A model generated the notes under the pieces. That model did no database searches and was not told where the DNA came from. It was given only the letters and a program-made list of their open reading frames with translations. A DNA stretch of 64,000 nt, from IMG/VR virus record IMGVR_UViG_3300044693_000272; one strand, given 5' to 3'. A program made the translations under genes and the position numbers. The stretch is from a virus (lineage: Duplodnaviria; Heunggongvirae; Uroviricota; Caudoviricetes). This document shows, piece by piece, positions 18,337-41,460 of the stretch. Position 1 is the stretch's first letter. Each line of letters begins with the position of its first letter.

Positions 18337-18385
18337 TTACCATGTTCAAATGATACATTCATCTGAACATGGTTGCAAGTGTTTT
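18337..18385 (-). promoter_or_regulatory. conserved promoter/operator element: -35 TTGCAA (18373-18378), -10 TATCAT (18350-18355)
   Basis: Near-consensus copy with CATGTTCA/TGAACATG inverted repeat. Confidence 0.55.
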
Positions 18386-18641
18386 ATTCGTCCTCGTCTT
18401 CTTCTTCGCCCTCGTCTCCATCTTCATCGTTTTCGTCACGAACGAGAGCGTTAAGGACGCATTCGTCACCATCGTAGTCAGGTGCTTCAACGCTCACTTC
18501 GAGCAGCGTTCCGTAGATGCCCGAGTCGTCACCCACTCCCGACCGACCTTTCACTTCCATATCCGGTGGAAGCGTCTTGAGGATGGCAAGCGCAGCTTCC
18601 AGTTGAGCGATCAGATCTTTGTTCAGCATTTGCTTTGCCAT
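18384..18641 (-). CDS. hypothetical acidic protein (about 85 aa) with poly-Asp/Glu C-terminus
   Basis: ACAGGAGAAC SD; promoter motif 18655-18706. Confidence 0.5.
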   Translation of the reverse strand: MAKQMLNKDLIAQLEAALAILKTLPPDMEVKGRSGVGDDSGIYGTLLEVSVEAPDYDGDECVLNALVRDENDEDGDEGEEEDEDE

Positions 18642-18654
18642 TGTGTTCTCCTGT

Positions 18655-18706
18655 TGTTTACCAATAGCCAAATGATACATTCACCTGAACATGGTTGCAA
18701 CACTTA
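18655..18706 (-). promoter_or_regulatory. conserved promoter/operator element: -35 TTGCAA (18695-18700), -10 TATCAT (18672-18677)
   Basis: Consensus copy. Confidence 0.5.
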
Positions 18707-19321
18707 TTTGAAGCGATCAGTTACTTCAATTAGACGTCCGTCTTTAATGGTGAATACTTTGAGGTTGTCGACTACCCGAGCAAAACCCCAATCGTATTCA
18801 ACGGGATAACCTAGCACATGTTCGGTCAGCAATTCATAGTAAGCGTTGCCGCGCGATTCCTCATTCATGTTTTGCTCAGGCGTCAGAGCCCACAGTGTCT
18901 TGGTATCAGGCGACAGCTTCTCCAAGTGACGATCAAAGAGATTGCGCATTACTTTTTCATATGCTTTGAAGTCATGCTCTTCGTTACCCATGCCAGGATC
19001 TTGGTGTGAATTTGCGCTGGTGAATATGCTAGTAAGCTCGATATAAAAGTCGAGATCATTCTCGGTGAGATTCCTGAGCACTTTCGTTCTGTAGTGATCA
19101 GCGTCATTTTCCCACGTTTCGATACACAGTTCGAACGTATCAGCCACATCTATGGTACTAAGCGGTGGAATATCACGACAAAAGCTGTCATTACCAGTTC
19201 GATCTCGTACCATCTTAATGATTTGTTCGGCAATATCACCATCCGGATAGCAACCTTCACGCCCTGCAACTTCATTCAGAATAGCTTGAACGATAAGGAA
19301 TTGTTCTTTAATTTCCATCAC
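18704..19321 (-). CDS. hypothetical protein (205 aa)
   Basis: GGGGAG SD. Confidence 0.55.
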   Translation of the reverse strand: MMEIKEQFLIVQAILNEVAGREGCYPDGDIAEQIIKMVRDRTGNDSFCRDIPPLSTIDVADTFELCIETWENDADHYRTKVLRNLTENDLDFYIELTSIFTSANSHQDPGMGNEEHDFKAYEKVMRNLFDRHLEKLSPDTKTLWALTPEQNMNEESRGNAYYELLTEHVLGYPVEYDWGFARVVDNLKVFTIKDGRLIEVTDRFK

Positions 19322-19386
19322 ACACTCCCCAAAAAGAAAACGCCATTTTAACTGAATGGCGTGGTTATGTATGACATAAATGAAAA

Positions 19387-19629
19387 TTATTTGCTATACA
19401 TGATTTCGGTTGCGCGCTTGCTGGATAAATTCTTGATGACCTTATCGAGACGTTCCTTCGCCTCACAGTACTCTTTCCATGCCGGGACCAATGTTATGAT
19501 GTCCGGGTCTGGGTGATTGTCGAATATCGACCAATCGACTGGAGGAACATACAAAACTTGCACTTGCGCATGCAATTTGAGCAAACGAGGAATCGAGACT
19601 TTCATTGATTCTTTAGCATTGCTTGTCAT
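19387..19629 (-). CDS. hypothetical protein (about 80 aa)
   Basis: AAGGGGAAAGTG SD before ATG at 19629. Confidence 0.5.
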   Translation of the reverse strand: MTSNAKESMKVSIPRLLKLHAQVQVLYVPPVDWSIFDNHPDPDIITLVPAWKEYCEAKERLDKVIKNLSSKRATEIMYSK

Positions 19630-19698
19630 CACTTTCCCCTTATTCATTTCATGAGTTTCACAAGTAGATGGTATATTCAGATGATGAATGAAGCAAGC

Positions 19699-19733
19699 GA
19701 AAAAAGAGCCACTAGGCGAGGGTCCTAGTGGCT
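19699..19733 (-). terminator. strong rho-independent terminator (minus orientation)
   Basis: Minus strand: gagccactagg-accctcg-cctagtggctc followed by TTTTTTCGC. Confidence 0.6.
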
Positions 19734-19822
19734 CTAAACGGGGAATTGTGCGAGAGACCAGTCAACGCACAGCCGCCAATACTATAGGATCACCTTTTAT
19801 ACGTCAAGACTTGATTCAAAAT

Positions 19823-19858
19823 GAAAAAAGAGGCCACGACCTGTAAGTCGTGGCCTCT
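19823..19858 (-). terminator. strong rho-independent terminator (minus orientation)
   Basis: Minus strand: agaggccacgac-ttacag-gtcgtggcctct followed by TTTTTTCAT. Confidence 0.6.
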
Positions 19859-19951
19859 AACTAGGGTCTTATGCCGTGTGCCCCGCCAAGACGGAAGCAC
19901 ACATCTATCATCATATTACAAACCGCACCGCATAGCAAGCGCTGGGAGACG

Positions 19952-20434
19952 TTACTCAAATTCCCCTTCAATTTCAATTACTATTTTTTCACCACACGCA
20001 TTTTCGATCCACAATGCAATCATTTTTACTTGAAGTTCGATTTCATATGGGAGGTGATTACAATCCTGCTTCACCTGCTCTAGGTACTCTAATTGAGAGC
20101 CAAGAACCCTGTCCTTGGCTTCTAACCAATTTTCAGGTGTGGCCGCAATTGAATTGCCAGGATGACGCTTATTCCAAGCAATCCGACGGGTCTCTGTATA
20201 TTCCTGTTCAATATAACTGTTCTGTTGCTTGTTCCAAGCTTCTAAAATGCAATCAACTAATGATCTTTCAGATATCGAACTATGCATATGGCCGTCATCA
20301 TACTTTTGCCATACTTCTTCATCATTCACAAATATGGTTGTTCTTTCAGAACTATGACTGCCACAATATTCGCACTCATGCATCGCACCAGTGAAGTTTA
20401 CAATTTTGATTGTTGTCGTCATTATCATTCCCAT
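19952..20434 (-). CDS. hypothetical protein with CxxC pair (160 aa)
   Basis: ORF track; two strong minus-oriented terminators follow at 19699-19858. Confidence 0.5.
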   Translation of the reverse strand: MGMIMTTTIKIVNFTGAMHECEYCGSHSSERTTIFVNDEEVWQKYDDGHMHSSISERSLVDCILEAWNKQQNSYIEQEYTETRRIAWNKRHPGNSIAATPENWLEAKDRVLGSQLEYLEQVKQDCNHLPYEIELQVKMIALWIENACGEKIVIEIEGEFE

Positions 20435-20470
20435 AAAAACAAAATGGCCTCAGTTAAAACTGAGGCCATT
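20435..20470 (-). terminator. rho-independent terminator (minus orientation) between the tRNA cluster and the next gene
   Basis: aatggcctcag-ttttaa-ctgaggccatt then TTTGTTTTTATGG on the minus strand. Confidence 0.5.
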
Positions 20471-20501
20471 ATCTGAAAGCACATAGCTAACAGGATGAAT
20501 T

Positions 20502-20579
20502 TGGTCTCCAGTGCAAGATTCGAACTTGCGTCCCATGGTCCCAAACCACGTATACTAACCAGACTATACTAACCGGAGA
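20502..20579 (-). tRNA. tRNA-Pro (anticodon UGG)
   Basis: Hand-folded cloverleaf on the minus strand: acceptor tctccgg/ctggaga, anticodon stem cgtgg/ccatg, loop tTTGGga, T-arm gcaag-ttcgaat-cttgc, 3' CCA encoded. Confidence 0.6.
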
Positions 20580-20619
20580 ACGGGGGCCAGCTTTCGCCAG
20601 CTGAGCTAATTCCCCAAAA
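20580..20619 (-). pseudogene. tRNA-like 5' fragment (acceptor plus D-arm only)
   Basis: Minus strand reads ggggaattagctcagctggcgaaagctgg..., a canonical tRNA 5' half with no matching 3' half before the next tRNA begins. Confidence 0.25.
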
Positions 20620-20694
20620 TGGTGCGTCTGGAGAGGGTTGAACTCCCGACCTTGGCCTTGTAAGGGCCCTGCTCTTCCACTGAGCTACAGACGC
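20620..20694 (-). tRNA. tRNA-Val (anticodon UAC)
   Basis: Hand-folded: acceptor gcgtctg/cagacgc, D-stem gctc/gagc, anticodon loop cTTACaa, T-arm gggag-ttcaacc-ctctc, CCA encoded. Confidence 0.65.
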
Positions 20695-20796
20695 AAATTC
20701 TTTCCACAACAACGTTTGCTGCTGTTCCGTAAGTGTTTCACATTCTATTTAGTACGGTGCCAATAGTCAACAATAATTTCTACTGGAATAACCACT

Positions 20797-21660
20797 TTAA
20801 AAGTGGATAAGCTTGCCCATACATTGTGTTAGCATGCCATGCACGATCATGTTCAGATCACGCTCAAGGTATGCAAGCTCTTCGCTAAGTTGGCGAGCAG
20901 TATAACGTTCTTGTGACTTCATGTAAAGATTATCAATTACTTGATAATGACTACGCACTAAATGCTGGCGATCCTTAACTGCATTCATGATATCGATGCG
21001 CTGGTCCCAACCTTCGACTGGTAGCAATGAAATCTTGCCAGTTATCACATATTGTGCCAGTAGTTCACCCAAAAAATCCAAATCACTGCTGATATTACAC
21101 ATACGAGCAGACCGCATTGTCATGAGAAGCATCAACAATGCTTCTAGATCCCGACCAAAGCCTTGGATTCGCCCTGATAACACTTTTGCCTTATCACCAG
21201 TCAATCGCTCATAGGCTTCAGCAAGCGTATCGATCAAAGACTGCTCGGATACGTAACCACGTGCTTGGTTGGCATGTGCCATGCGATGCACCATAATCCA
21301 AGCATTCATGGGGATATAGTTGCTGTTAGTAGTAACATTCGTCGTATGACAAACATTTATGGCAGTTGGATCAACCAATTGTTCGCTAGGAATGATTTTG
21401 TTTAATTTGTCAGAGTCAAAAACGGCATGCTTTTGCATGAGGATATTGATGTTGAAATCGAACGTCGTTTTGTCGAACGAGCGATAGATCTTTGCCAAAC
21501 CCTTTTCCGATTTGAGCAAGTCAACATCTTGTTGTTGCCATGAACCAGAACCTTGCTCCAGGCAAGCCATATCACAGTGAATACCAAGATTGCGCAAGCT
21601 CATCTTTTCCTCCGCTCTTGACCATAAACCAAGTTTACGTTCATTTGGTGAAGGAGTCAA
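20797..21660 (-). CDS. hypothetical protein (287 aa)
   Basis: AGCGGAGGAAAAG SD. Confidence 0.55.
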   Translation of the reverse strand: MTPSPNERKLGLWSRAEEKMSLRNLGIHCDMACLEQGSGSWQQQDVDLLKSEKGLAKIYRSFDKTTFDFNINILMQKHAVFDSDKLNKIIPSEQLVDPTAINVCHTTNVTTNSNYIPMNAWIMVHRMAHANQARGYVSEQSLIDTLAEAYERLTGDKAKVLSGRIQGFGRDLEALLMLLMTMRSARMCNISSDLDFLGELLAQYVITGKISLLPVEGWDQRIDIMNAVKDRQHLVRSHYQVIDNLYMKSQERYTARQLSEELAYLERDLNMIVHGMLTQCMGKLIHF

Positions 21661-21672
21661 CAGATGAATACC

Positions 21673-22269
21673 TCAAGGCATCATTTTGGCTAAGAAGTCA
21701 TGGTAGGAAAGTGTTTGATCGCAAGGACTCAATGTGAATATGATACGATCACCTTCGATGCCAGTAACACTATGAATGTCGGTTGCGTCCAATGCCCCCC
21801 AGGCCCCAAGTGGTGTGTCAAAAGTTGCTCTTATGGGAGCGTTGATTTCGTTGAAAAATGTATTGGCAACAGAAGCGGCAGGCTCATGAAAATGTAGTTT
21901 TACATTTTCACCACCACTTTGAAGAAGATAGTTAAGTGCAACACCACGTTTTCTATCAGTATGTGCTGGAAAGATAGCTTTTCTATTTGGCCGAATATTC
22001 CGCATAATAAACAATTGATAGGTGGCCTCAATTGGTAAAGCCGGTTCCATTATTGCTTTCAATTCACACAAATCAATATAGTCACCAATATTGAAACTGA
22101 TGCGTTCGACAATATTGTAATGATCAAGAATTTCAGTAGAGAATGGATATGGACGAGTGGTTATCCACTGACGTTGTAATTCTTCGTCATAAAATAGATC
22201 TTTAGCCAATTTAATTAACTTATCAGTCAACTCTGGTGAAAGCGTAGGTAAAGGAACTACTTGAAACAT
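21673..22269 (-). CDS. cupin/2OG-oxygenase-like protein, paralog 1 (retains HxD...H)
   Basis: PAHTDRKRG ... KLHFHE gives a candidate His-x-Asp...His facial triad; paralogous to 23348-23959. Confidence 0.45.
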   Translation of the reverse strand: MFQVVPLPTLSPELTDKLIKLAKDLFYDEELQRQWITTRPYPFSTEILDHYNIVERISFNIGDYIDLCELKAIMEPALPIEATYQLFIMRNIRPNRKAIFPAHTDRKRGVALNYLLQSGGENVKLHFHEPAASVANTFFNEINAPIRATFDTPLGAWGALDATDIHSVTGIEGDRIIFTLSPCDQTLSYHDFLAKMMP

Positions 22270-22347
22270 ATAATATCCTTGAACGTATTTGCAGGTATTT
22301 AGTTATGAAAATATAGTTAAATACCACTTTAAACCTTATAGAATATC

Positions 22348-23316
22348 ATGAATTCAGGTACACACAACGACCATTATCATTGGGGTTGGGACGACGGTTG
22401 GTATAATTTGCCAACGTCAACCGAGTCAACTTACAAAGTCCAATTTACAAGTGCTGGCACACACGATTCCTTTCATGTAGAAACAATTCGAGCAGCCACA
22501 TTAATGGCAAATGAATGGAAGAAACCATTTATAGTTGGGTTGTCTGCTGGATTAGATTCACAGATCGTTTGTTTGGCATTGAAAGAAATAAAGAAGGACT
22601 TCGAAGCCGTAACTATGGCTTGGTTAGATAACGACGGTAATATCATTAATGCCGATGACGTCAACTATGCAATTGAATTCTGCAAACTTCATAATATCAA
22701 ACATACCTGTGTCAAGTATTCGGTAGAAGCGTTTTTAGCTGGGCGCGGTACATATCTTGCACAAAAATATTGCATACACTTTTATCGTAAAATCGTGCAA
22801 GCTCATTTATTGGATCTTTACAAAGATACTCACACAATTTTAATAGGAGCCGGTAACCCAGTATTTGATATGGTCGGTGGTAAACTTATGATTGAAATCT
22901 CAGCCACTTACCTACAACGTTGTTATGTCAATGAAGGGGTAGAAGGCACATCAATCTTTTTTAAATACACACCCGAGCTCTATATGTCACAAATTGATAA
23001 TGTATTTTGTGATGCATTTTTGGCTGGTGCGTATAAGAGTATGTTTGATGCTTTTAAGGAAGATAGTAAAAATCCATATTGGACATGGCGCATGTTCACT
23101 TCATATTTCAAGCCACTTGTTTGTCAAGCGAATTGGGACGGTTTACTCCATAGAAGTAAACAGCATGGGTTTGAAACATATTCCAAAGATGATTATTGGA
23201 AAAAACAGATAGAATTACAACGTGCCGGTAGGAAGAATATTCTGTATGCGGATGCATTTGAGTTTACTGAATTTTTGAAACAGCCAAAAGGAACTCAACG
23301 ATTGTGGACAATCTAA
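22348..23316 (+). CDS. PP-loop (N-type) ATP pyrophosphatase superfamily protein
   Basis: FIVGLSAGLDSQIVCLA is the SGGxDS PP-loop signature (QueC/TilS/TtcA/asparagine synthetase-like); plus strand between two minus-strand paralogs. Confidence 0.55.
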   Translation: MNSGTHNDHYHWGWDDGWYNLPTSTESTYKVQFTSAGTHDSFHVETIRAATLMANEWKKPFIVGLSAGLDSQIVCLALKEIKKDFEAVTMAWLDNDGNIINADDVNYAIEFCKLHNIKHTCVKYSVEAFLAGRGTYLAQKYCIHFYRKIVQAHLLDLYKDTHTILIGAGNPVFDMVGGKLMIEISATYLQRCYVNEGVEGTSIFFKYTPELYMSQIDNVFCDAFLAGAYKSMFDAFKEDSKNPYWTWRMFTSYFKPLVCQANWDGLLHRSKQHGFETYSKDDYWKKQIELQRAGRKNILYADAFEFTEFLKQPKGTQRLWTI

Positions 23317-23349
23317 AAGGAAAACCCTGCATTTGCAGGGTTTTCCTTT
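23317..23349. terminator. bidirectional terminator between convergent genes (PP-loop ATPase and cupin-like paralog 2)
   Basis: aaaggaaaaccctgc-attt-gcagggttttccttt, a perfect 15-bp stem. Confidence 0.55.
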
Positions 23350-23959
23350 ATGCGTTTGGTGTATATGACGGTCCAAACAAACTAGGATGTTGTTGTAGTA
23401 AATCTGGGAATGTAATTGATGTATCAGTTGGAGCCAAACTGACTACAATACAAGTATCAGTAATCCCAGAAATTGAGCGTACCATGGTAGCATCAAATGC
23501 ATACCAAGAGCCAGCGGTCATAGTATATGACGACGTTGGTGTTAATGTTGGATCATATACGGTATTTGCTTGATTGACGGCTTCGTTAAAGAAGAAATTA
23601 TATAAGGTGCTGCCGCCAAGTTGAAGGTAATAATTGATTGCAACTGAACCAGCCAATCCACGGCTTGGTGGCATAAGGGCAGGAGTACTAGCTGTGGTGT
23701 TCTTCATAATAAAGAATTCATAATCCACAGCAAATGGTAGTGAAGACGAAATAGCTGCTGCCAAATCAGTGGGATCTGGAATCATACACCCCATACGTTC
23801 AACAATATTAGAAGCGGTCATTTGCGCACTTGTATATGGCCAAGGATGACGACTATTGAAGCTTGTAATATTATCAGCTGTGAACATATTTGTTGCTTGA
23901 GTTATCAAGCTTGATGTGAGTGTATCTGACAGCTTTGGCAGAGTTAAATTGTAAATCAT
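23348..23959 (-). CDS. cupin-like protein, paralog 2 (candidate metal ligands lost)
   Basis: Colinear with 21673-22269 (FIMKN..., INYYLQLGGS) but PPSRG and FFFNE replace the His/Asp positions. Confidence 0.45.
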   Translation of the reverse strand: MIYNLTLPKLSDTLTSSLITQATNMFTADNITSFNSRHPWPYTSAQMTASNIVERMGCMIPDPTDLAAAISSSLPFAVDYEFFIMKNTTASTPALMPPSRGLAGSVAINYYLQLGGSTLYNFFFNEAVNQANTVYDPTLTPTSSYTMTAGSWYAFDATMVRSISGITDTCIVVSLAPTDTSITFPDLLQQHPSLFGPSYTPNA

Positions 23960-23963
23960 ATGT

Positions 23964-24173
23964 TTACCGTTGTGGTGTGATCGATAGTTTTATGAGAATA
24001 GCATTCTGTCGCGCATTCTCTAATTCATAGATATCAGACTTGAAATTAAGTTCTGGTGTAGCTTCGCGCATCAAAAATTCGATGCATTCATCAACAAACT
24101 GGTCGATATCCTCAAATGTTACTGATTGGTCGTATGCCATATCACGGATACGATCTAGAATTTTATGCTGCAT
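23964..24173 (-). CDS. hypothetical protein (69 aa)
   Basis: ORF track; overlaps upstream stop. Confidence 0.4.
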   Translation of the reverse strand: MQHKILDRIRDMAYDQSVTFEDIDQFVDECIEFLMREATPELNFKSDIYELENARQNAILIKLSITPQR

Positions 24174-24648
24174 TTGTGAAGTTTTTCAGCTTTGTGGCTA
24201 ATTTAATGTTCGTAACCGTCAAGCCAAATGCTTGCGCAGATTTCGAAAGTTCCCCATATTTATAGCCTGCGAATCTAGTCAAAAGCGTGATCATGACGTG
24301 AACAAAGATACCACCGTGTTCACCACTATCAGTTTCATCTATGAAATTTGTCAAAGTATGAGCTAATTCATGCAAAACAATAATATTGTTTCTTGACCAT
24401 TTGGGGAGGTGAATTTCTTTACAATCACTACGAGCATAAATGCTGCCACGACCATCAATCACTTTTGGTGCTGGACCTTTCATATTGAGTTCCTTCCAGA
24501 CTTCTTTAATCAACTGCTGACATTGTTTCAGAGATAGAATGGTTTCGTTGCGACAGGTGAATCGTGAGAGTTCCCAGCCATAACAGAGTTGAGTTTGACC
24601 AGCAAAAAGACCAGCACTTAGGGAATTTTCGGCGCGCGGATTGCTCAT
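24163..24648 (-). CDS. HExxH zinc metallopeptidase (SprT/WLM/DUF45-like)
   Basis: IIVLHELAHTL motif with a downstream Glu/His region; ACAGGAGCC SD. Confidence 0.5.
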   Translation of the reverse strand: MSNPRAENSLSAGLFAGQTQLCYGWELSRFTCRNETILSLKQCQQLIKEVWKELNMKGPAPKVIDGRGSIYARSDCKEIHLPKWSRNNIIVLHELAHTLTNFIDETDSGEHGGIFVHVMITLLTRFAGYKYGELSKSAQAFGLTVTNIKLATKLKNFTNAA

Positions 24649-24729
24649 ATCACTGGCTCCTGTTATAATTTGGCATGCACCACAAAGTTATTTAGTGGTG
24701 TGTCAAACTAATTAACAGCGCACAAAGAA

Positions 24730-25059
24730 ATGAGCGATAAGAAACCTACGTCAATGTGGGACGCTGTGACTCATGCTATGGCGGCAAAAGATGATCCGCA
24801 CGGATCGAACATGCTACGTCGGTATGGTCCAGTCCAACCAGGAAGTGAAGAATTTGATAGTTTGCTGAAACGAACGGCGCATGCTATGCACAAAGTTGGC
24901 GATGCTGCGTATGGACTTCAGGGAATATATCGCCGAGACCTCACCAACACGCCAGAAGACGTTCTGGCGGCCATCCAGAGTTTAAAAGAAGCCCACAAGC
25001 TTCTTTTGGGCGCAGAGGCTGTATTGCGCTCTGCGCATGTCCGGGCTAAGAAAAAGTGA
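24730..25059 (+). CDS. hypothetical protein (109 aa), plus strand
   Basis: Divergent from the metallopeptidase gene; ORF track. Confidence 0.4.
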   Translation: MSDKKPTSMWDAVTHAMAAKDDPHGSNMLRRYGPVQPGSEEFDSLLKRTAHAMHKVGDAAYGLQGIYRRDLTNTPEDVLAAIQSLKEAHKLLLGAEAVLRSAHVRAKKK

Positions 25060-25174
25060 AAGTTTGGTTAAAGAAATTAGCCCCACAAAAGGCAAGAGAT
25101 TACTTTGGACTGATTGCAGGATGTTTTGCTATTCCTGCAATCTTGCTATTGATTTATGCTGAATTATTTTTGAA

Positions 25175-25399
25175 ATGAAATCTAGAATTGATATTCGTGT
25201 TAGTGGTCCTGGATCAACTATCCATTGCGAGATAGCAGTGATTCACAAAGCATTGAAAGAAGCAGGCTTTAACGTTTGTGTGGTCGATAGTCATCCCTGT
25301 CCGGATGACTATAATCCACTAAACGAAAAAGCGATGGAATTGGCTCGTGAGAATAAGGTGATCTGTATTATCGCAGACCACCAACCATGGGGTGGTTAA
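25175..25399 (+). CDS. hypothetical protein (74 aa), plus strand
   Basis: ORF track. Confidence 0.35.
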   Translation: MKSRIDIRVSGPGSTIHCEIAVIHKALKEAGFNVCVVDSHPCPDDYNPLNEKAMELARENKVICIIADHQPWGG

Positions 25400-25684
25400 T
25401 TACTTAATGGGGAAAGGCATGATGCCGTTGGGCTCACCATCATCAACAACTCCTCCCAAATATTCGGGATATAGAACTTTCATTTCGACCAGTTGTTGGC
25501 CGAGTTGATCATTGGTTAGCCTATGTAATCCTACGCTCTTAGGGTCAGAATGCAATTGCTTACCCAAGAGTGATAGTGCTACTTCCCTTGCGAATACCCA
25601 TTTGTAACCAGCTGGGATACTCATAGGAATAGAGTCAGGATATACTGGTTCGTTTAAAAAATCGGCTCGTCTTTCAACATTCAT
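25400..25684 (-). CDS. small protein, tandem paralog pair B member 1
   Basis: AGYKWVFAREVALSLLG ... GGVVDDGEPNG is paralogous to the next gene. Confidence 0.5.
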   Translation of the reverse strand: MNVERRADFLNEPVYPDSIPMSIPAGYKWVFAREVALSLLGKQLHSDPKSVGLHRLTNDQLGQQLVEMKVLYPEYLGGVVDDGEPNGIMPFPIK

Positions 25685-25692
25685 AGTATCAC

Positions 25693-25965
25693 CTATGTTA
25701 TTTGAACTGCTTGAATGAAACCGTTTGGAGCACCATCAACGACAACTCCACCGAATACACTATCATGTATGGCTCCTGCCGCAAGGAGACATTCACCTAG
25801 TTCTACGTTATCCATTGTGGTGTATTCAAGTTGCTCATCTTCGTCTACATCTTCCTGCAACATATTCAATACAAAGATAGCAACGCTTCGGGCAAACACA
25901 AATCGCCCACCTTTATGCACTTTCACTGGTATTGCGGCTGGATACACTAATTCATAGCTGTCCAA
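25693..25965 (-). CDS. small protein, tandem paralog pair B member 2
   Basis: KGGRFVFARSVAIFVLN ... GGVVVDGAPNG. Confidence 0.5.
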   Translation of the reverse strand: MDSYELVYPAAIPVKVHKGGRFVFARSVAIFVLNMLQEDVDEDEQLEYTTMDNVELGECLLAAGAIHDSVFGGVVVDGAPNGFIQAVQIT

Positions 25966-25985
25966 CTCACCACCTCAATGAAACA

Positions 25986-26014
25986 AAGGCTAACCCCTTT
26001 AAGGGGTTAGCCTT
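25986..26014 (-). terminator. rho-independent terminator after the H1-like protein gene
   Basis: aaggctaacccc-ttta-aggggttagcctt then TTTGTTTCATTG on the minus strand. Confidence 0.55.
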
Positions 26015-26034
26015 GATTATTGCGTAACATTAAC

Positions 26035-26865
26035 TTACGCTTGCGCTTCCTTCTTGTCTTGGCCCTTCTTGGAAGTCGACGCTTTCTTCACGGCAGCGGT
26101 TGTATTTTTTGCTTCGGCTGCCGCAGCGGGTGTCTGGCCTTCGACTTGTGCATCACCAGCCGGTGCATTCGTCGTTTCGCCTGTTGCTTGCTCGCCGTTG
26201 CTTTCAGCGCCGAAGTGCTGCATCAGTGCCTCTGCCGAGCTCGTGTCTTGTGCTTCACCAGCCGTCGCACTGGGTTGCTCTGTCGTTACACCACCCGTCG
26301 CCCCAGCGTTCGTTTCGGGTTGAGCGTTGGTTGGCTCAGTCGGCGCTTCGGGCTGTGCTTCAACTTGCTTCGACTTGCCCTTGCGTTCAGCTTTCGGCTT
26401 GTCAGCTTTTGCTGCCTTGGGTAATTTGTCGGGCTTGGGCAGTTTGTCGGCCTTGGCTTGCTTCGGTTCTTTTGCCGGTTCTTCAGCCTTTGCATCGGAC
26501 AGGGTCGCTGTCTTCATCAACGCGCTGTCCGCAACGATCAAAGTGGGGGTCGATTCGGCTGCATCGTCCGGAAGATCACGCAAGGTGAACCATCCGTAGC
26601 CGTCGTTGTGGAACAGGAATGATGTGCCGAGCTCGGGGCGAGGATACTTGAGGTCTTTGATGAAACTTGCGGGAATTTCAACCAGCGTTGCTCCGCTTTC
26701 AGCTTTTGCCGTGCGCGCTTGCATGTTTTTACCCGAAACGCGGTAGCTGGGGCGCAGGGCCAGGTATTCAACGCCCCCACGCTTCATCGTCTTGACACGA
26801 AGACGGGTGATACCATGGAGCAGCTCGACCGCCGCCCCGTTGAATTGCAGAACCAACGAAGACAT
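26035..26865 (-). CDS. protein with globular N-domain and long Ala/Lys/Pro/Glu-rich, histone H1-like low-complexity C-terminal tail
   Basis: AAAGGAGAA SD; tail PKPDKLPKAAKADKPKAERKGKS...; hairpin terminator 25986-26014 downstream. Confidence 0.55.
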   Translation of the reverse strand: MSSLVLQFNGAAVELLHGITRLRVKTMKRGGVEYLALRPSYRVSGKNMQARTAKAESGATLVEIPASFIKDLKYPRPELGTSFLFHNDGYGWFTLRDLPDDAAESTPTLIVADSALMKTATLSDAKAEEPAKEPKQAKADKLPKPDKLPKAAKADKPKAERKGKSKQVEAQPEAPTEPTNAQPETNAGATGGVTTEQPSATAGEAQDTSSAEALMQHFGAESNGEQATGETTNAPAGDAQVEGQTPAAAAEAKNTTAAVKKASTSKKGQDKKEAQA

Positions 26866-27022
26866 ATGAAATTCTCCTTTACTTCAAGTGAGTTTTTGAT
26901 CTAATCTTTCCACAAAACTGCTTGTGTAAATGAACTCTAACATCACCTGCTCACCTATACAAGCATTTTATGCTTATTCATCTTAAAAGAATACCACGTT
27001 TCATTTAAATCTGGTTTACGCC

Positions 27023-27700
27023 TTATTCTACAATGAACCGCATTTTTGCTTCATTAATCCCGAGAACCTCAATGCCTTCACGGGTCTTGGGAATATTGAA
27101 AATGCCAATTGCGGAGAAGGGGTTTGTATTATCAACTTCTTGCTCAGCATTTTCATCAAAAAGCCACCGCATAGCAAATCGATAATTATGTCCAACTATC
27201 CTGTAATTCATTACCGTAATAGACGGATCATAACCAGACCAAACCATTCTTGCAAACTGTTTGGGTTCAACTAGAGCCACTCTCGTGAATGCTTGTGGCG
27301 ATATTACCCCGCGATATCCGCAAGTGCCCAACACTTTTAGGCTTCCTTCCCAAGAGTATTGATCAGCACGTTCGCGATAAAACATGGTTCGCTTATGCAT
27401 ATCCCAAGCTTTCGGCAGTTTGTCCTGGCCGCGAGTTGCTTGCTCAATCGCGTCTTCATCAGCGACAAACTTATACTGATTCATCTTACTAGTGTCGATT
27501 TCTAGAACGACAAGCTGCTCATCAACTTTGCTTGCTTGAGCTGCAAAGTATAGAGCATACGCATCAGTCAGGTATACTGTTTGAGCATTGCTGGGGATAC
27601 TATGATCCCAGTTACTCATCTCGTTTTGATTGCGCGGCGTCAGACCATCAGCCAGAATTGAAGGTAGGTGCCGACTCGTGGTGCCATGAAAGAGCTTCAT
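27023..27700 (-). CDS. ADP-ribosyltransferase-fold protein with PARP-like catalytic signature
   Basis: MKLFHGTTSRHLPSILADGL parallels the PARP beta1-alpha motif LWHGSR..N...ILSQGL (H-Y-E class). Confidence 0.5.
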   Translation of the reverse strand: MKLFHGTTSRHLPSILADGLTPRNQNEMSNWDHSIPSNAQTVYLTDAYALYFAAQASKVDEQLVVLEIDTSKMNQYKFVADEDAIEQATRGQDKLPKAWDMHKRTMFYRERADQYSWEGSLKVLGTCGYRGVISPQAFTRVALVEPKQFARMVWSGYDPSITVMNYRIVGHNYRFAMRWLFDENAEQEVDNTNPFSAIGIFNIPKTREGIEVLGINEAKMRFIVE

Positions 27701-28035
27701 GCTGCTTGCCTCTTCTCGAATAGTTCAAGAGCCTTAACATCAAGCACGCAGAGATCGCCTTCTGGGAAATCCTGGTTCGCTCGGTTAAGCATCCTCGAGC
27801 AATCGTAGCAGTAATACGCATACGAACCACGGTTCCACCAAACTGCACCAGGTTCCTGGCAGGCGGTACGATTGCAACTTCCCGCCATCTTGCCCTTATC
27901 TGCCTTCAGCACGGGTTCTGTCTGACCACCGTATAGCGTTACCGCCACAGGCGAAGATTCGAAGGGATGGCCCATACGACGAGCACGTCGCTTCATCAAT
28001 ATTCGTTGTTCGATGCTCCCCGGGCGGGCCATCAC
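27697..28035 (-). CDS. Cys-rich zinc-finger protein (112 aa)
   Basis: ACAGGAGAA SD; CNRTAC ... CYDC. Confidence 0.5.
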   Translation of the reverse strand: MMARPGSIEQRILMKRRARRMGHPFESSPVAVTLYGGQTEPVLKADKGKMAGSCNRTACQEPGAVWWNRGSYAYYCYDCSRMLNRANQDFPEGDLCVLDVKALELFEKRQAA

Positions 28036-28103
28036 CTGATTCTCCTGTTCGTTTACCTATCGCAGATAGTATGTTCGCATGAATTTGATGTAAAGCGATG
28101 TTT

Positions 28104-28478
28104 TCACGCGCTTTGTGCCAAGATGATCGCGTACAATTTTGGGCTCACCATACGAAGCTGGTCAGCATCAACCTTCAAGCGGGCAAGAGCACTGACAATA
28201 TTGTTACTCTCCATATCACGAGCCGCCATCACCACAACCGTGTAGTCTTGTAGATCTTCACGATCAAGTTCATCAAGCAAATCGTAATATTGCGTTGACG
28301 TTAGCTTGTAACCTTGCTTCTGAATACGATACAGACACCAGAAATGGTGTCTGTTGATGTCACCGTTGATCTGTGGATCCGAAAGTTTACAAGACGAGCA
28401 GCAATAATAAGGATTATCACCTCCGATCGGTTCATTCGGATAATCGCTATCGTAAACCATATTTCCTCCACTGTTCAT
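28104..28478 (-). CDS. hypothetical protein with CCSSC motif (124 aa)
   Basis: GTGGAGGAAAT SD. Confidence 0.5.
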   Translation of the reverse strand: MNSGGNMVYDSDYPNEPIGGDNPYYCCSSCKLSDPQINGDINRHHFWCLYRIQKQGYKLTSTQYYDLLDELDREDLQDYTVVVMAARDMESNNIVSALARLKVDADQLRMVSPKLYAIILAQSA

Positions 28479-28599
28479 TTAATGCTGGCCCCCAACCAAT
28501 GCCTCTACATGGGATGATACTCAAATGCCCAAACGCACTTCTTACATGGATTCGCCAGTACTAACTGAACTGTTTGAGGGGCTGTCGCCCCTCACCCGC

Positions 28600-28971
28600 T
28601 TACTTCTTCGTCTTGTAGGTCTTGACTTTCTTGCGGCGCGCCGCGATACGAGGACGCTTGACCTTCACGTCGCGAACATCGAACGACAACTTGATCTTCG
28701 CAGCGTCTTCTTCGCTCGACAAGTACACTTTGTCGACGTAGATGATCTGGTTTTCGAATTCCTTCGGCCGACCCTTGACGCGCGTGGAATCCTTGTGCGT
28801 GTAGCACACCACCTTGTAGTAGCCCTTTGCATTTTCACGCAGCCACGTCAACACATCTTCCGGTGTGAGCTGGCTGTTGCCAAACCAGAAACGCACAGGA
28901 AATGCGTAGTAGTGGCTGATGTCACCGAAACGTTCGCTGTGGCGACCGAAATCTTTGATCGTTGTGGACAT
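28600..28971 (-). CDS. hypothetical protein with basic C-terminal tail (123 aa)
   Basis: GAGGAGGGAAAC SD; promoter motif 28993-29040. Confidence 0.5.
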   Translation of the reverse strand: MSTTIKDFGRHSERFGDISHYYAFPVRFWFGNSQLTPEDVLTWLRENAKGYYKVVCYTHKDSTRVKGRPKEFENQIIYVDKVYLSSEEDAAKIKLSFDVRDVKVKRPRIAARRKKVKTYKTKK

Positions 28972-28992
28972 CTCGTTTCCCTCCTCACGTTG

Positions 28993-29040
28993 TTTACCGT
29001 ACGTCAGATGATAAGTTCACCTGAATGTGGCGTCAATTGA
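28993..29040 (-). promoter_or_regulatory. conserved promoter/operator element: -35 TTGACG (29031-29036), -10 TATCAT (29008-29013)
   Basis: Consensus copy. Confidence 0.5.
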
Positions 29041-29043
29041 ATT

Positions 29044-29592
29044 TCATTCCACAAGCTTCAGATACTTTGCATCTACGGCATCAACCAGCCACACATCATT
29101 TGCTGACTTGTAGAAATCAACTTTATCAGCCAGCATAGCTTTAGAGTCAACTTCAATTACTACAGTTTTTCGAAACCGTTTCCGAGCCAGTTCAATGTCA
29201 GCAGTGAGATGAACGTGAGTACGTGTCATCTTATTGAGACCTTTCTTCTTGATGATCTCCCAAGCTTCGCTTGAAGTGCCGTGATACAAGATCACTGGCG
29301 GCACTGCTTTTTGCAACCCAGGATCAACATTAATGGAATGTCCTTGGTTTGCCCGAATTTTGGTGAAGTCTTCATTGAATGAATAACGGCCCTTCTGATC
29401 GTTAGCAACAATTCCTTTCAGGATTTCAAGATCAAATTCATAACCTGCTTTCTTGCCCGCCGCTATCACATCGTCTACTAGGATGAATGCTTGTTTGTCA
29501 ATTTTGACTTTTTGTTCTTTCGCACCATGTCGCAGCAAGTACGACAACCAAATACTATGCTTTTTGTACTTTTTATTGAAGTCTTCATTCAT
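29044..29592 (-). CDS. kptA: RNA 2'-phosphotransferase Tpt1/KptA
   Basis: Start at internal ATG (MNEDF), TAATG-coupled; motifs LSYLLRH, IRANQGHS, LYHGTSS, THVHL match the Tpt1 Arg-His-Arg-Arg and HGT signatures. Confidence 0.8.
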   Translation of the reverse strand: MNEDFNKKYKKHSIWLSYLLRHGAKEQKVKIDKQAFILVDDVIAAGKKAGYEFDLEILKGIVANDQKGRYSFNEDFTKIRANQGHSINVDPGLQKAVPPVILYHGTSSEAWEIIKKKGLNKMTRTHVHLTADIELARKRFRKTVVIEVDSKAMLADKVDFYKSANDVWLVDAVDAKYLKLVE

Positions 29593-29825
29593 TATTTTGG
29601 TATCCCATCTGTATATCCGAACACACCATAGCCACGCACACTCACCAAGTAAGTATCCCAACCAATGCGTTCATCTTTTCCTTGATGAAGGAATGCAATG
29701 TCGTCATGGCAAAAATGTGTCCCCATGCGTTCGTTAATTTCCGTCAACAAGTCTTCCTTCGTTTCGAAATTGAAGACCGTAGCCAGTGATTCGGCCAATC
29801 CACCACGATGTTCACGTGCTCGCAT
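29592..29825 (-). CDS. hypothetical protein (77 aa)
   Basis: GAGGGATATC SD; stop overlaps the Tpt1 start. Confidence 0.45.
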   Translation of the reverse strand: MRAREHRGGLAESLATVFNFETKEDLLTEINERMGTHFCHDDIAFLHQGKDERIGWDTYLVSVRGYGVFGYTDGIPK

Positions 29826-29829
29826 ATTC

Positions 29830-31197: not shown

Positions 31198-31213
31198 TTT
31201 TATCTCCTGTTCT

Positions 31214-41441: not shown

Positions 41442-41460
41442 CTTTATTCTCCTTGTTTGT

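What the first reader, a model, noticed from the sequence alone, without database searches (positions are those of the whole stretch)
21673..23959. Opposite-strand cassette: PP-loop ATPase flanked by two cupin-like paralogs
This is the only sizeable plus-strand gene in the window. It encodes a 322-aa PP-loop ATP pyrophosphatase (SAGLDS). It lies between two minus-strand paralogs: one keeps a candidate His-x-Asp...His metal triad (AHTD ... HFHE), the other has lost it. The cassette lacks the ubiquitous promoter element, has its own AT-rich divergent control region (22270-22347), and ends in a perfect bidirectional terminator (23317-23349). An adenylating enzyme plus an oxygenase-like pair is the typical toolkit for nucleobase, tRNA or peptide modification, so this could be a DNA or tRNA hypermodification module or a small RiPP-like locus.
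Basis: partly seen in the sequence, partly recalled or inferred. Interest (0 to 1): 0.65.

Follow-up and report, generated by a model that had tools for sequence, protein, structure and literature searches.

The report
Phage PP-loop enzyme between dioxygenase-like paralogs
In a roughly 524-kb uncultured phage, a gene for an ATP-using "PP-loop" enzyme from a large, unstudied, phage-only family sits between two copies of a small iron/2-oxoglutarate oxygenase-like protein (one intact, one catalytically dead), and this enzyme family turns up next to oxygenase genes in many unrelated phages, which suggests an undescribed two-step modification pathway with an unknown target.

Summary

The PP-loop protein is not NadE, GuaA, QueC, TilS, MnmA or AsnB. 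It belongs to an unnamed clade (885 cluster representatives) found in viral contigs, absent from 50,697 deposited phages and nearly absent from cellular genomes. In 36 of 46 contigs a member lies within 3 kb of an oxygenase gene from one of three families, in 19 gene orders.

The trio itself occurs in only two of five close lineages, and the copy that stays linked to the PP-loop gene is the dead one.

Best reading (about 0.4): hydroxylase plus adenylating ligase acting on one unknown, probably amino-acid-like, substrate, with the dead paralog as an auxiliary subunit. DNA, tRNA and RiPP readings are unsupported but not excluded. I rate it a new variant of known kinds, of moderate interest.

The parts
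21673..22269 (-). parA: 198-aa small 2OG-Fe(II) dioxygenase-fold protein, predicted to be catalytically competent (H103, D105, H166, R175). It is the first gene of a minus-strand unit that continues into the 287-aa gene and two tRNA genes.
22270..22347 (.). 78-bp AT-rich divergent spacer between the parA and PP-loop start codons. It presumably holds both promoters.
   Evidence: 24% GC. There is a weak sigma70-like match, TTTGCA-18-TATAGT, at 22288-22317(+). It lacks the window's recurrent minus-strand motif. No function has been shown.
22348..23316 (+). 322-aa PP-loop ATP pyrophosphatase of an unnamed, phage-restricted clade. It forms a stand-alone plus-strand transcription unit.
   Evidence: Motif SAGLDS at residues 66-71. 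The family has 885 representatives. The family-wide conserved residues E45, N101, D104, G169, F204, P209, E210, K255, K271, G274 and E276 are all present. Only sub-threshold, N-terminal-only similarity to NadE, MnmA, TilS, QueC and AsnB.
23316..23349 (.). Perfect 15-bp palindromic hairpin between the convergent stop codons of the PP-loop gene and parB. It is a probable bidirectional terminator.
   Evidence: Sequence. RNA fold -25.1 kcal/mol, z = -4.5, with 0 of 200 shuffles folding as well. A comparable hairpin follows the homolog in L007.
23348..23959 (-). parB: 203-aa paralog of parA with all four catalytic positions lost (S, G, R, C). It is a predicted non-catalytic pseudoenzyme and the last gene of the SprT-like / 69-aa / parB operon.
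   Evidence: 32% identity to parA, E 9e-32. Catalytic positions. It groups with the two dead copies that flank the PP-loop gene in L002. There is a 4-nt gap to the upstream gene.
23964..24173 (-). 69-aa acidic protein gene immediately upstream of parB. It is the best-conserved gene of the module and stays linked to the dead paralog in L002. Function unknown.
   Evidence: 67.6% identity to L002 12856-13059. Position is conserved upstream of the dead paralog. No PDB or PADLOC hit.
24163..24648 (-). 161-aa protein with an HELAH zincin motif and weak SprT-like similarity. It is the first gene of the operon that ends in parB. This is context; its membership of the module is uncertain.
   Evidence: Pfam SprT-like E 0.0068, below the cut-off. 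Its end overlaps the start of the 69-aa gene. Not found in L002.
20797..21660 (-). 287-aa gene of unknown function, 12 nt downstream of parA on the same strand. This is context.
   Evidence: ORF. No Pfam, PHROG, PADLOC or PDB hit. Present only in this lineage.
20502..20694 (-). tRNA-Pro(UGG) and tRNA-Val(UAC) genes downstream of the parA unit. In L002, tRNA-Val(UAC) and tRNA-Ala(UGC) lie directly downstream of the catalytically intact paralog. This is context for the tRNA rival hypothesis.
   Evidence: ARAGORN. Rfam tRNA at 64.6 and 55.6 bits.

Best explanation
The cassette is an accessory module of a huge (about 524 kb) uncultured phage.

Shown:
- The middle gene encodes a member of a large, unnamed, essentially phage-restricted clade of PP-loop (N-type) ATP pyrophosphatases.
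- The two flanking genes are paralogs with the double-stranded beta-helix fold of 2OG-Fe(II) dioxygenases.
- parA keeps the Fe ligands (H103, D105, H166) and the 2OG-binding R175. parB has lost all of them.
- Members of this PP-loop clade lie within 3 kb of catalytically intact 2OG oxygenases of three different families in many unrelated phages.

Inferred:
- parA hydroxylates, or otherwise oxidises, a substrate using Fe(II), 2OG and O2.
- The PP-loop enzyme uses ATP to adenylate a carboxylate or carbonyl oxygen of the same substrate or of its precursor or product. AMP is then displaced by a nitrogen nucleophile, as in all amidating PP-loop enzymes, so the pair installs a hydroxyl plus an amide or amidine.
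- parB, together with the conserved 69-aa protein, acts as a non-catalytic auxiliary subunit for substrate binding or stabilisation. The precedent is the TlxI/TlxJ dioxygenase heterodimers.
- The substrate is unknown. An amino-acid-like, peptidyl or other small carboxylate substrate is the most likely. parA's best structural matches are free-amino-acid hydroxylases. The partners elsewhere are PhyH- and AspH-type enzymes, accompanied by a GNAT and a putative His/Cys amidase.
- The PP-loop gene is its own transcription unit, with a divergent AT-rich promoter region and a bidirectional hairpin terminator, and it has moved about the genome during evolution.
For: - ORFs and paralogy.
- Catalytic residues lie on the expected strands.
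- PP-loop clade: 885 representatives at E<=1e-3, mostly 290-340 aa and matching over the full length; conserved motifs.
- No conserved Cys set, which argues for amidating or ligating chemistry rather than sulfur transfer.
- Phage restriction: 45 loci returned by two IMG/VR scans, which overlap by about ten contigs; only 2 MAG scaffolds in 185,579 species' genomes.
- Linkage: 36 of 46 contigs have an oxygenase-like gene within 3 kb of the PP-loop gene. There are 62 HMM hits within 3 kb against 2 at 3-10 kb, in 19 gene orders that include divergent ones.
- Partner identities: PhyH at E 3.7e-24 and Asp_Arg_Hydrox at 2.3e-5, all with HxD...H...R intact.
- The cassette (dead paralog, PP-loop gene, 69-aa gene) kept its linkage while occupying different backbone positions in the window and in L002.
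- Precedent for a catalytic plus dysfunctional-paralog dioxygenase heterodimer: PMC12141560.
Against: - The three-gene arrangement is found in only two of five close lineages. L001, L007 and L026 carry the PP-loop gene without any paralog nearby. The tree suggests one origin and one loss, so independent support within this lineage is thin.
- In L002 both flanking copies are dead and the intact copy is 7 kb away.
- parB, the PP-loop gene and parA belong to three separate transcription units.
- Small 2OG oxygenases are generally abundant in large aquatic phages (PMC3037559). The oxygenase HMMs were built from PP-loop neighbours, and many loci are related, so the enrichment is not a clean statistic.
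- The window protein has Ala at a Gly that is 98% conserved in the PP-loop motif.
- No biochemical data exist, the PP-loop structure model is unusable (pLDDT 45), and the substrate is a guess.
Confidence: 0.4

Rival explanations
1. There is no shared pathway. The PP-loop gene is an independently mobile, self-contained accessory gene (moron-like) that landed between two tandem copies of an abundant phage oxygenase-like family, and adjacency here is historical accident.
For: - The PP-loop gene occupies three different backbone positions in related phages, always antisense to its neighbours.
- It has its own AT-rich upstream region and a hairpin terminator.
- Its GC content is lower than the locus in every lineage checked.
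- L001, L007, L026 and L047 lack any nearby oxygenase.
- 2OG oxygenases are multicopy in large phages.
Against: - The dead paralog, the 69-aa gene and the PP-loop gene moved together between the window and L002.
- Across 46 contigs, oxygenases of three unrelated families cluster within 3 kb of the PP-loop gene, in 19 gene orders, and almost never in the 3-10 kb flanks.
Confidence: 0.25
2. It is a tRNA modification module. The intact dioxygenase hydroxylates a base, for example C5 of wobble U34, in phage or host tRNAs, and the PP-loop enzyme adenylates a tRNA base for further derivatisation, as TilS and MnmA do.
For: - In both huge-phage lineages the catalytically intact paralog lies just upstream of tRNA genes with U34 family-box anticodons: Pro-UGG and Val-UAC here, Val-UAC and Ala-UGC in L002.
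- From my own knowledge, these are the tRNAs that carry (m)cmo5U34 in Proteobacteria, a modification that starts with U34 hydroxylation.
- The neighbourhood holds a Tpt1-type RNA 2'-phosphotransferase, and SmpB in L002.
- The best PP-loop sequence matches include MnmA, TilS and TtuA.
Against: - The tRNA adjacency is shared synteny between two related phages, so it is not independent evidence.
- The PP-loop matches cover only the generic nucleotide-binding part and equal those to NadE, QueC and AsnB.
- No conserved Cys set for thiolation.
- No RNA-binding domain was detected.
- Partners in other phages (PhyH, AspH-like, GNAT, putative amidase, SDR) look like small-molecule or peptide chemistry.
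Confidence: 0.12
3. It is a DNA hypermodification module. The oxygenase oxidises a DNA base and the PP-loop enzyme activates it for further decoration, to evade restriction.
For: Phages use 2OG dioxygenases (TET/JBP-like 5mYOX) for DNA hypermodification (PMC8256090 and PMC13229309, listed). Some PP-loop enzymes (QueC, DndC) act in DNA modification pathways (my own knowledge). A distant clade member, L052, sits beside GTP cyclohydrolase I.
Against: - No TET/JBP signature or Pfam hit.
- No methyltransferase, hydroxymethylase, kinase, glycosyltransferase or DpdA/TGT gene in the cassette.
- QueC's Zn-binding cysteines are absent.
- The literature searches found no PP-loop partner in the known hypermodification pathways.
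Confidence: 0.08
4. It is an NAD+ synthetase-like enzyme or other nucleotide-cofactor amidotransferase, used to restore a cofactor during infection. The oxygenase-like neighbours would be unrelated.
For: The best profile matches of the family are to NH3-dependent NAD+ synthetases (3fiu at E 6.8e-7; TIGR00552 hit by 34 of 82 members). The motif 'IGAGN' aligns with NadE 'IGTDN'.
Against: - The matches cover only about 65-115 residues and are far below curated cut-offs.
- The family has a conserved N-terminal NNHYKWGWGD motif and a roughly 150-residue C-terminal region that match no solved structure by sequence.
- This reading does not explain the tight linkage to oxygenases.
Confidence: 0.05
5. 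It is a small RiPP-like locus. The PP-loop enzyme would act as an Asn-synthetase-like macrolactam cyclase on a ribosomal peptide that the oxygenase hydroxylates.
For: Weak Asn_synthase Pfam hit (E 0.0012). Six of 82 family members weakly hit an albusnodin/ikarugamycin-type macrolactam cyclase model. A conserved 69-aa ORF is linked to the module. L002 has a second PP-loop protein with a roughly 165-aa N-terminal extension.
Against: - The window protein has only 58 residues before the PP-loop motif, so it lacks the N-terminal domain of AsnB-like cyclases.
- No RRE, leader peptidase or transporter is present.
- The 69-aa protein is a conserved acidic protein rather than a leader-plus-core peptide, and it belongs to a different operon.
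Confidence: 0.05

Closest known systems
N-type ATP pyrophosphatases of the PP-loop superfamily (NadE, MnmA, TilS, TtuA, QueC, AsnB synthetase domain)
   Same: It has the SGGxD[ST] pyrophosphate-binding loop after the first strand of a Rossmann-like domain. The family profile matches NadE, MnmA and TtuA at E of about 1e-6 over the nucleotide-binding region. It presumably shares the chemistry of ATP to AMP plus PPi via an adenylated substrate.
   Different: - No member reaches any curated family cut-off.
- A conserved N-terminal NNHYKWGWGD motif and a roughly 150-residue C-terminal half (FFxYTPEL, KP, KxxGFE) match no solved structure by sequence.
- No Cys cluster.
- No glutaminase-like N-domain.
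- Found almost only in phages.
Free L-proline hydroxylases and other PhyH/clavaminate-synthase-like 2OG oxygenases (PDB 1e5r, 4p7x, 7u6i)
   Different: Sequence identity is only 10-14%. parA is much smaller (198 aa against 246-286 aa). No Pfam model recognises it. Its substrate is unknown.
Multicopy small 2OG-Fe(II) oxygenases and PhyH-domain proteins of T4-like cyanophages (Sullivan et al. 2010, PMC3037559)
   Same: They are oxygenase paralogs of similar size (about 180-255 aa, from gene lengths of 537-768 bp), present in several copies per large aquatic phage genome, with unknown function. BFVD structural matches include such proteins.
   Different: The family here is tiny, with 8 known members. 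It is not detectable by sequence models and includes conserved catalytically dead copies. Linkage to a PP-loop enzyme was not noted in that work.
TlxI/TlxJ and TlxA/TlxC heterodimeric alpha-KG oxygenases (PDB 7vbq; PMC12141560)
   Different: That system is a fungal meroterpenoid pathway. Heterodimerisation of parA with parB is untested. In L002 two dead copies flank the PP-loop gene while the intact copy is distant.
Beta-lactam synthetase + clavaminate synthase, and CarA + CarC (my own knowledge, not tested here)
   Same: They are pathways in which a PP-loop adenylating amide-forming enzyme and a 2OG oxygenase act in succession on one small amino-acid-derived substrate. This is the nearest mechanistic analogy for the pairing.
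   Different: Those PP-loop enzymes are AsnB-like proteins of about 500 aa with an N-terminal domain. There is no specific sequence similarity, the host range differs (actinomycetes and Pectobacterium), and there is no evidence of a beta-lactam product here.
Cyanophage secondary-metabolite-like cluster with 2OG dioxygenase and cupin hydroxylases (Iyer et al. 2021, PMC7824862)
   Same: It is a predicted phage-encoded small-molecule or polysaccharide-decorating pathway that uses several DSBH hydroxylases.
   Different: That cluster has carbamoyltransferases, a halogenase and methylases, with no PP-loop enzyme. The term 'PP-loop' does not occur in that survey.

Membership tests
PP-loop ATP pyrophosphatase superfamily (middle gene) | SGGxD[ST] PP-loop motif following the first beta-strand of the nucleotide-binding domain | tested here: met
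   LSAGLDSQ at residues 65-72. It is canonical SGGxDS in 98% of 82 family members. The window protein and P0004 carry Ala at the first Gly.
PP-loop ATP pyrophosphatase superfamily (middle gene) | Significant profile similarity to known PP-loop domains | tested here: met
   The single sequence is only sub-threshold. The 82-sequence family profile hits NadE, MnmA and TtuA in the PDB at E 7e-7 to 4e-6 over query residues ~53-166.
PP-loop ATP pyrophosphatase superfamily (middle gene) | Rossmann-like alpha/beta/alpha fold | tested here: inconclusive
Housekeeping NAD+ synthetase (NadE) or GMP synthetase (GuaA) | Full-length match above the curated family cut-off | tested here: not met
   Pfam NAD_synthase at 13.8 bits against a cut-off of 21. 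The window protein does not hit nadE TIGR00552 at all; the best member reaches E 1.9e-7. GMP synthase is hit by 1 of 82 members. Alignments cover only the N-terminal ~110 residues.
QueC (7-cyano-7-deazaguanine synthase) | Family-level match and a conserved Zn-binding cysteine cluster | tested here: not met
   The QueC Pfam model is hit weakly by 20 of 82 members (best 2e-9) and not by the window protein. Only one column is mostly Cys (82%), and 1 of 82 sequences has a CxxC.
tRNA sulfurtransferases MnmA / TtcA / TtuA / ThiI / LarE-type | Conserved catalytic or Fe-S-binding cysteines | tested here: not met
   No conserved Cys set. MnmA NF001138 scores 20.1 bits against a cut-off of 284.
TilS (tRNA lysidine synthetase) | TilS N-domain above cut-off plus tRNA-binding C-terminal domains | tested here: not met
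   TIGR02432 scores 19.8 bits against a cut-off of 93.6. The C-terminal half matches no TilS structure by sequence. A fold comparison of the C-terminal half was not possible.
Asparagine synthetase B-like enzymes (AsnB, beta-lactam synthetase, lasso or macrolactam cyclases) | N-terminal Ntn-type (glutaminase-like) domain of about 200 aa preceding the PP-loop domain, and an Asn_synthase match above cut-off | tested here: not met
   Only 58 residues precede the motif. Asn_synthase scores 19.0 bits against a cut-off of 21, over residues 59-131 only.
2OG-Fe(II) dioxygenase superfamily (parA) | Double-stranded beta-helix fold | tested here: met
2OG-Fe(II) dioxygenase superfamily (parA) | HxD/E...H iron-binding facial triad on the conserved strands | tested here: met
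   H103 lies at the end of strand 98-103, D105 in the following loop, and H166 at the start of strand 166-171. These are conserved in all five intact family members.
2OG-Fe(II) dioxygenase superfamily (parA) | Basic residue binding the 2OG C5 carboxylate about 10 residues after the distal His | tested here: met
   R175 (GDR-IIF), nine residues after H166, at the start of strand 174-182. It is conserved in the intact members.
2OG-Fe(II) dioxygenase superfamily (parA) | 2OG-dependent oxidative activity | not testable with these tools
   This needs purified protein and a succinate- or CO2-release assay.
2OG-Fe(II) dioxygenase superfamily (parB) | Iron triad and 2OG-binding Arg | tested here: not met
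   The equivalent positions are S, G, R and C. The fold is inferred from 32% identity to parA. parB is a homolog of the superfamily but not a candidate enzyme.
TET/JBP or AlkB nucleic-acid dioxygenases (parA) | Specific family match or closest structural neighbours among nucleic-acid oxygenases | tested here: not met
RiPP biosynthetic locus | Precursor peptide gene plus a recognition element, protease or transporter next to the modifying enzymes | tested here: not met
   None found by Pfam, PHROG or PADLOC in the cassette. The only small conserved ORF (69 aa) is in another operon and has no known RiPP features.

The most novel reading that the evidence does not exclude
The PP-loop clade and its oxygenase partners form a widespread, phage-specific two-enzyme pathway that makes a chemically new modification. 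This could be a hydroxylated and amidated small metabolite or peptide conjugate. More provocatively, it could be a new wobble-base modification of phage-encoded U34 tRNAs, or a new DNA base. In that pathway the conserved catalytically dead dioxygenase paralog (with the 69-aa protein) would serve as a dedicated substrate-presenting subunit for the PP-loop enzyme.
Probability: 0.2. Interest if true: 0.8.

Novelty: new variant of a known kind. Interest (0 to 1): 0.5.

Why it matters
Large phages carry many small 2OG-Fe(II) oxygenase genes whose purpose has been unknown since they were first catalogued in cyanophages. This analysis links them to a specific partner: an unnamed PP-loop enzyme clade with hundreds of sequence clusters, seen almost only in phages and in no deposited phage genome that was tested.

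That partner gives the oxygenases a testable biochemical context, namely an oxidation step coupled to an ATP-dependent adenylation or amidation step. It also supplies compact operons that can be expressed to look for the product, for example GNAT, PhyH, putative amidase and two PP-loop genes in group A.

If the product turns out to be a nucleic-acid or tRNA modification, it would add a new chemistry to phage counter-defence or translation takeover. If it is a metabolite, it would be a new class of phage auxiliary metabolism. The conserved dead paralogs are also a natural case of pseudoenzyme retention in a viral genome.

Tried and rejected
- **Searches of deposited phages.** A DNA megablast and protein tblastn of the cassette against 50,697 phage records found nothing. 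tblastn with four other clade members also found nothing. A positive control with a gp46-like neighbour returned 3,350 records, so the absence is real.
- **Family libraries.** Pfam, PHROG and PADLOC gave no hit for the paralogs, the 287-aa protein or the 69-aa protein. PDB sequence searches for the paralog profile, the 69-aa, SprT-like and 287-aa proteins were empty or spurious.
- **Locus searches.** The first genome scan found nothing. The metagenome scan gave no new close relative.
- **RNA families.** Rfam found only the two tRNAs.
- **Rejected ideas.**
  - 'HFHE' as metal ligands, because it is not conserved in the intact member L002:2413-3030.
  - Sulfurtransferase chemistry, because there is no conserved Cys set.
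  - Housekeeping NadE or GuaA identity.
  - Cassette-specific absence of the promoter motif, because a 12.9-kb stretch lacks it.
  - Homologs of the group A/B partner genes in the window: none found.
- **Left tentative.** The PPPDE/DeSI-type identity of the group A 174-aa protein rests only on Pfam E 0.002 plus an invariant GGxHS...NNCNTF pattern. There is no PDB sequence support.


Full report
**Observation**

parA and parB are real paralogs, with 60/189 residues identical and E 9e-32. The middle protein carries LSAGLDSQ at residues 65-72, and two close homologs have the canonical SGGIDS.

The 78-bp spacer between the divergent start codons is 24% GC, against 44% for the window. Between the convergent stop codons lies a perfect 15-bp-stem hairpin at 23316-23349 (-25.1 kcal/mol, z = -4.5). 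The PP-loop ORF is by far the largest plus-strand ORF not shadowed by a minus-strand ORF, and the next largest is 172 aa.

A recurrent motif, TGAACATGGTAAACA, occurs 28 times against 3.2 expected, with 25 copies on the minus strand. It is absent from the cassette. It is also absent from the whole stretch 18349-31210, so its absence is not a property of the cassette.

**Genome context**

The window is at least 99% identical at protein level to a 523,572-bp JGI metagenome contig (3300045049, Ga0466959_0000001) and to two Logan contigs. It is densely packed with short, same-strand genes of unknown function. It also carries:
- tRNA-Pro(UGG) and tRNA-Val(UAC);
- a Tpt1-type RNA 2'-phosphotransferase, a Band_7 gene and an HD_4 gene;
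- a CoaE-like kinase/phosphohydrolase fusion and an acyltransferase.

One gene has its only cultured homologs in jumbo phages of Ralstonia and Achromobacter. This is a huge phage, possibly of a betaproteobacterium.

**The flanking paralogs**

In parA, H103 and D105 sit at the end of strand 98-103. H166 opens strand 166-171 and R175 opens strand 174-182, which is the textbook layout of iron triad plus 2OG-binding arginine. These four residues are conserved in parA, P0006, P0007, L002:2413-3030 and P0010.

parB has S, G, R and C at the four positions and cannot bind iron or 2OG in the canonical way. The family is tiny, with eight members found in 5.8 billion clustered proteins.

**The PP-loop protein**

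Word-indexed search found only four relatives. An exhaustive profile search of 1.84 billion cluster representatives found 885 at E<=1e-3 and 302 at E<=1e-10. Most are 290-340 aa and match over the full length.

The family has its own signature:
- an N-terminal NNHYKWGWGD motif;
- E45;
- SGGxDS;
- N101-x-H-D104;
- a GGD/GAGN turn at G169;
- FFxYTPEL;
- K255-P;
- R269-x-K271-x-x-G274-F-E276.

The window protein keeps all of these except the first Gly of the loop, which is 98% conserved. Ala occurs there only in the window protein and in P0004.

Members hit Asn_synthase, QueC, NAD_synthase, MnmA and TilS models about equally. The hits are weak and cover only the nucleotide-binding ~110 residues. 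None reaches a curated cut-off. There is no conserved cysteine set, which argues against Fe-S or persulfide sulfur transfer and leaves adenylation followed by attack of a nitrogen nucleophile as the default chemistry.

The clade is absent from 50,697 deposited phage genomes, tested with five members plus a positive control. It is present in IMG/VR viral contigs: two overlapping scans returned 45 loci. In 185,579 species' genomes it was found only on two MAG scaffolds.

**Is the trio conserved?**

Only partly. The five close lineages relate as (window, (L002, (L001, L007))) with L026 as outgroup.

- **L002/L003 (47% identity).** The arrangement is dead paralog(-) | PP-loop(+) | a second PP-loop protein of 388 aa with AFSGGIDT(+) | dead paralog(-) | homolog of the 69-aa gene(-). 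A third, catalytically intact paralog lies 7 kb away, directly beside tRNA-Val(UAC) and tRNA-Ala(UGC).
- **L001, L007 and L026.** The PP-loop gene is alone, still antisense to its neighbours.

Backbone synteny shows the PP-loop gene at three different positions. In L002 only the intact paralog occupies the position that corresponds to the window's cassette.

In a neighbour-joining tree the dead copies (parB and both L002 flanking copies) form one clade, and the intact ones form two others. So the partner that stays with the PP-loop gene through relocation is the dead paralog plus the 69-aa gene. That 69-aa gene is 67.6% identical between lineages and is the best-conserved gene of the module.

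In transcription terms there are three units:
- parB is the last gene of an SprT-like / 69-aa / parB operon, with overlapping or 4-nt junctions.
- The PP-loop gene stands alone.
- parA starts a unit that runs into the 287-aa gene and the tRNAs.

The cassette genes are slightly AT-richer than most of their neighbours (GC3 0.29-0.33), and the PP-loop gene is below its locus GC in every lineage checked.

**The wider clade gives the strongest functional clue**

Across 46 contigs carrying a clade member, 36 have an oxygenase-like gene within 3 kb. HMM hits number 62 within 3 kb against 2 in the 3-10 kb flanks, spread over 19 gene orders. One order (L056) is divergent like the window's.

- **Group A.** These contigs look T4-like, with baseplate, SegE and gp46-like genes nearby. 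The neighbours of the PP-loop gene are a PhyH-family oxygenase (E 3.7e-24), a GNAT, a 174-aa protein, and a second, divergent PP-loop protein. The 174-aa protein has an invariant GGxHS...NNCNTF pattern and is tentatively a PPPDE-type His/Cys amidase.
- **Group B.** The neighbours are two AspH-like oxygenases and an SDR.

All these partner oxygenases keep HxD...H...R.

Three caveats apply. Many loci are related to each other. The oxygenase HMMs were built from PP-loop neighbours. Small 2OG oxygenases are known to be multicopy in large aquatic phages (PMC3037559). Even so, three unrelated oxygenase families recur next to one PP-loop clade, in rearranged orders, and this is hard to ascribe to chance.

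**Mechanism**

What is shown is the fold and ligand status of the paralogs, PP-loop superfamily membership, clade distinctness, phage restriction and the gene linkage. What follows is inferred.

- The intact oxygenase hydroxylates a substrate.
- The PP-loop enzyme adenylates a carboxylate or carbonyl of the same substrate or a neighbouring intermediate, for amidation or ligation.
- parB acts as an auxiliary, non-catalytic subunit. TlxI does this for TlxJ: a paralog lacking the 2OG-binding Arg raises kcat/Km about 80-fold (PMC12141560).

I favour an amino-acid-like, peptidyl or other small carboxylate substrate. parA's closest structures are free-amino-acid hydroxylases. The partner set elsewhere (PhyH, AspH-like, GNAT, putative amidase, SDR) looks like small-molecule or peptide chemistry.

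From my own knowledge, the nearest mechanistic analogy is beta-lactam synthetase with clavaminate synthase, or CarA with CarC. I give this overall reading about 0.4.

**Rivals**

| Reading | Confidence | Main basis |
|---|---|---|
| No coupling; PP-loop gene is a mobile moron-like gene | 0.25 | Three backbone positions, and three close lineages without paralogs |
| tRNA modification | 0.12 | The intact paralog lies beside U34 family-box tRNA genes in both huge phages, but that is shared synteny |
| DNA hypermodification | 0.08 | None of the known pathway genes are present |
| NadE-like cofactor amidation | 0.05 | Best but weak sequence similarity |
| RiPP-like locus | 0.05 | No precursor or recognition element |

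**Comparison and novelty**

Both superfamilies are well known, and multicopy oxygenases in big phages are a known puzzle. Four things appear to be new:
- the PP-loop clade itself, which is unnamed, uncharacterised and phage-restricted;
- its systematic pairing with 2OG oxygenases;
- the small sequence-orphan oxygenase family with conserved dead members;
- the persistence of the dead copy next to the PP-loop gene.

Full-text searches found no description of such a pairing. The jumbo-phage survey PMC7824862 discusses phage dioxygenases without any PP-loop partner. I therefore rate it a new variant of known kinds, with interest 0.5. It is a concrete, testable lead on an old question, but the substrate and any phenotype are unknown, and support within the window's own lineage is thin.

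**Limits**

- Model coordinates could not be inspected, so the triad geometry is inferred from strand positions.
- Only 6-10 kb flanks were available, so no whole-genome background could be computed.
- The PPPDE assignment is tentative.

Noticed in passing
window 24163-24648 (-): A 161-aa protein with an HELAH zincin motif and a weak SprT-like Pfam hit (E 0.0068). It is the first gene of the operon that ends in parB, and its end overlaps the start of the 69-aa gene.
   Followed up: partly
window 23964-24173 (-); L002 12856-13059: A 69-aa acidic protein that is 67.6% identical between the two huge-phage lineages, far better conserved than its neighbours. It is always immediately upstream of the dead paralog and has no recognisable family.
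   Followed up: partly
window-wide, e.g. 2229-2243, 2867-2881, 41458-41472, 41714-41728 (-): The motif TGAACATGGTAAACA occurs 28 times (3.2 expected), 25 of them on the minus strand. The palindrome GTTCATATGAAC occurs 9 times (0.2 expected). Both also lie upstream of minus-strand neighbours in L001 and L007. They are likely phage promoter or operator elements.
   Followed up: partly
window 20502-20694 (-); L002 2174-2326 (-): The tRNA genes next to the catalytically intact paralog all have U34 family-box anticodons: Pro-UGG and Val-UAC here, Ala-UGC and Val-UAC in L002. From my own knowledge, this is the set that carries cmo5U34 in Proteobacteria.
   Followed up: partly
L002 11003-12169 (+): A 388-aa protein co-oriented with the PP-loop gene and immediately downstream of it carries AFSGGIDT at about residue 172. 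It is a second, unrelated-looking PP-loop enzyme with a roughly 165-aa N-terminal extension. Group A phages likewise have a second divergent PP-loop gene (356 aa) downstream.
   Followed up: partly
L012 9469-9993 (+) and homologs in at least 20 loci: A 174-aa protein with an invariant GGxHS...NNCNTF pattern, possibly a PPPDE/DeSI-type His/Cys amidase, is almost always found between the PhyH oxygenase and the PP-loop gene. Pfam support is weak (E 0.002) and no PDB sequence hit was found.
   Followed up: partly
L008 2700-11101: One viral contig carries four copies of the PP-loop clade gene plus two copies of the second PP-loop type, a PhyH gene, the 174-aa gene and an AspH-like gene, all within about 11 kb. 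This is an expanded version of the module.
   Followed up: no
L052 2050-8965 (+): Two distant PP-loop clade members sit beside GTP cyclohydrolase I, a GDP-mannose-dehydratase-like epimerase and a FAD-dependent (DAO) oxidoreductase. This context is reminiscent of deazapurine or sugar-nucleotide pathways.
   Followed up: no
window 29044-29592 (-); L002 8711-9157 (-): The phage encodes a Tpt1/KptA-type RNA 2'-phosphotransferase (PF01885). The related phage L002 encodes an SmpB homolog, the tmRNA-binding protein.
   Followed up: no
window 52150-53385 (-): A 411-aa fusion of a dephospho-CoA-kinase-like P-loop kinase (PF01121, E 4.6e-24) with a phosphohydrolase domain (phrog_19425).
   Followed up: no
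window 26035-26865 (-): A 276-aa protein whose C-terminal half is K/A/E/P/T-rich low-complexity sequence. The gene is 57% GC, well above the window mean of 44%. The N-terminal part is conserved in L001 and L002.
   Followed up: no
window 5783-6700 (-): A 305-aa protein (phrog_6856) whose only cultured homologs (40-44% identity) are in jumbo phages of Ralstonia (RP12, RP31, phiRSL1) and Achromobacter (Motura). Some of those records annotate it as TRAP-transporter solute-receptor-like. This is a hint to the host range.
   Followed up: partly
window 33532-33927 (-), and 36964-37359, 43327-43917, 48531-48941, 55185-55691 (-): Several small-protein families are multicopy within the window and in L001 and L002 (for example w33532-like and w36964-like), showing extensive paralog expansion in this phage lineage.
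   Followed up: no
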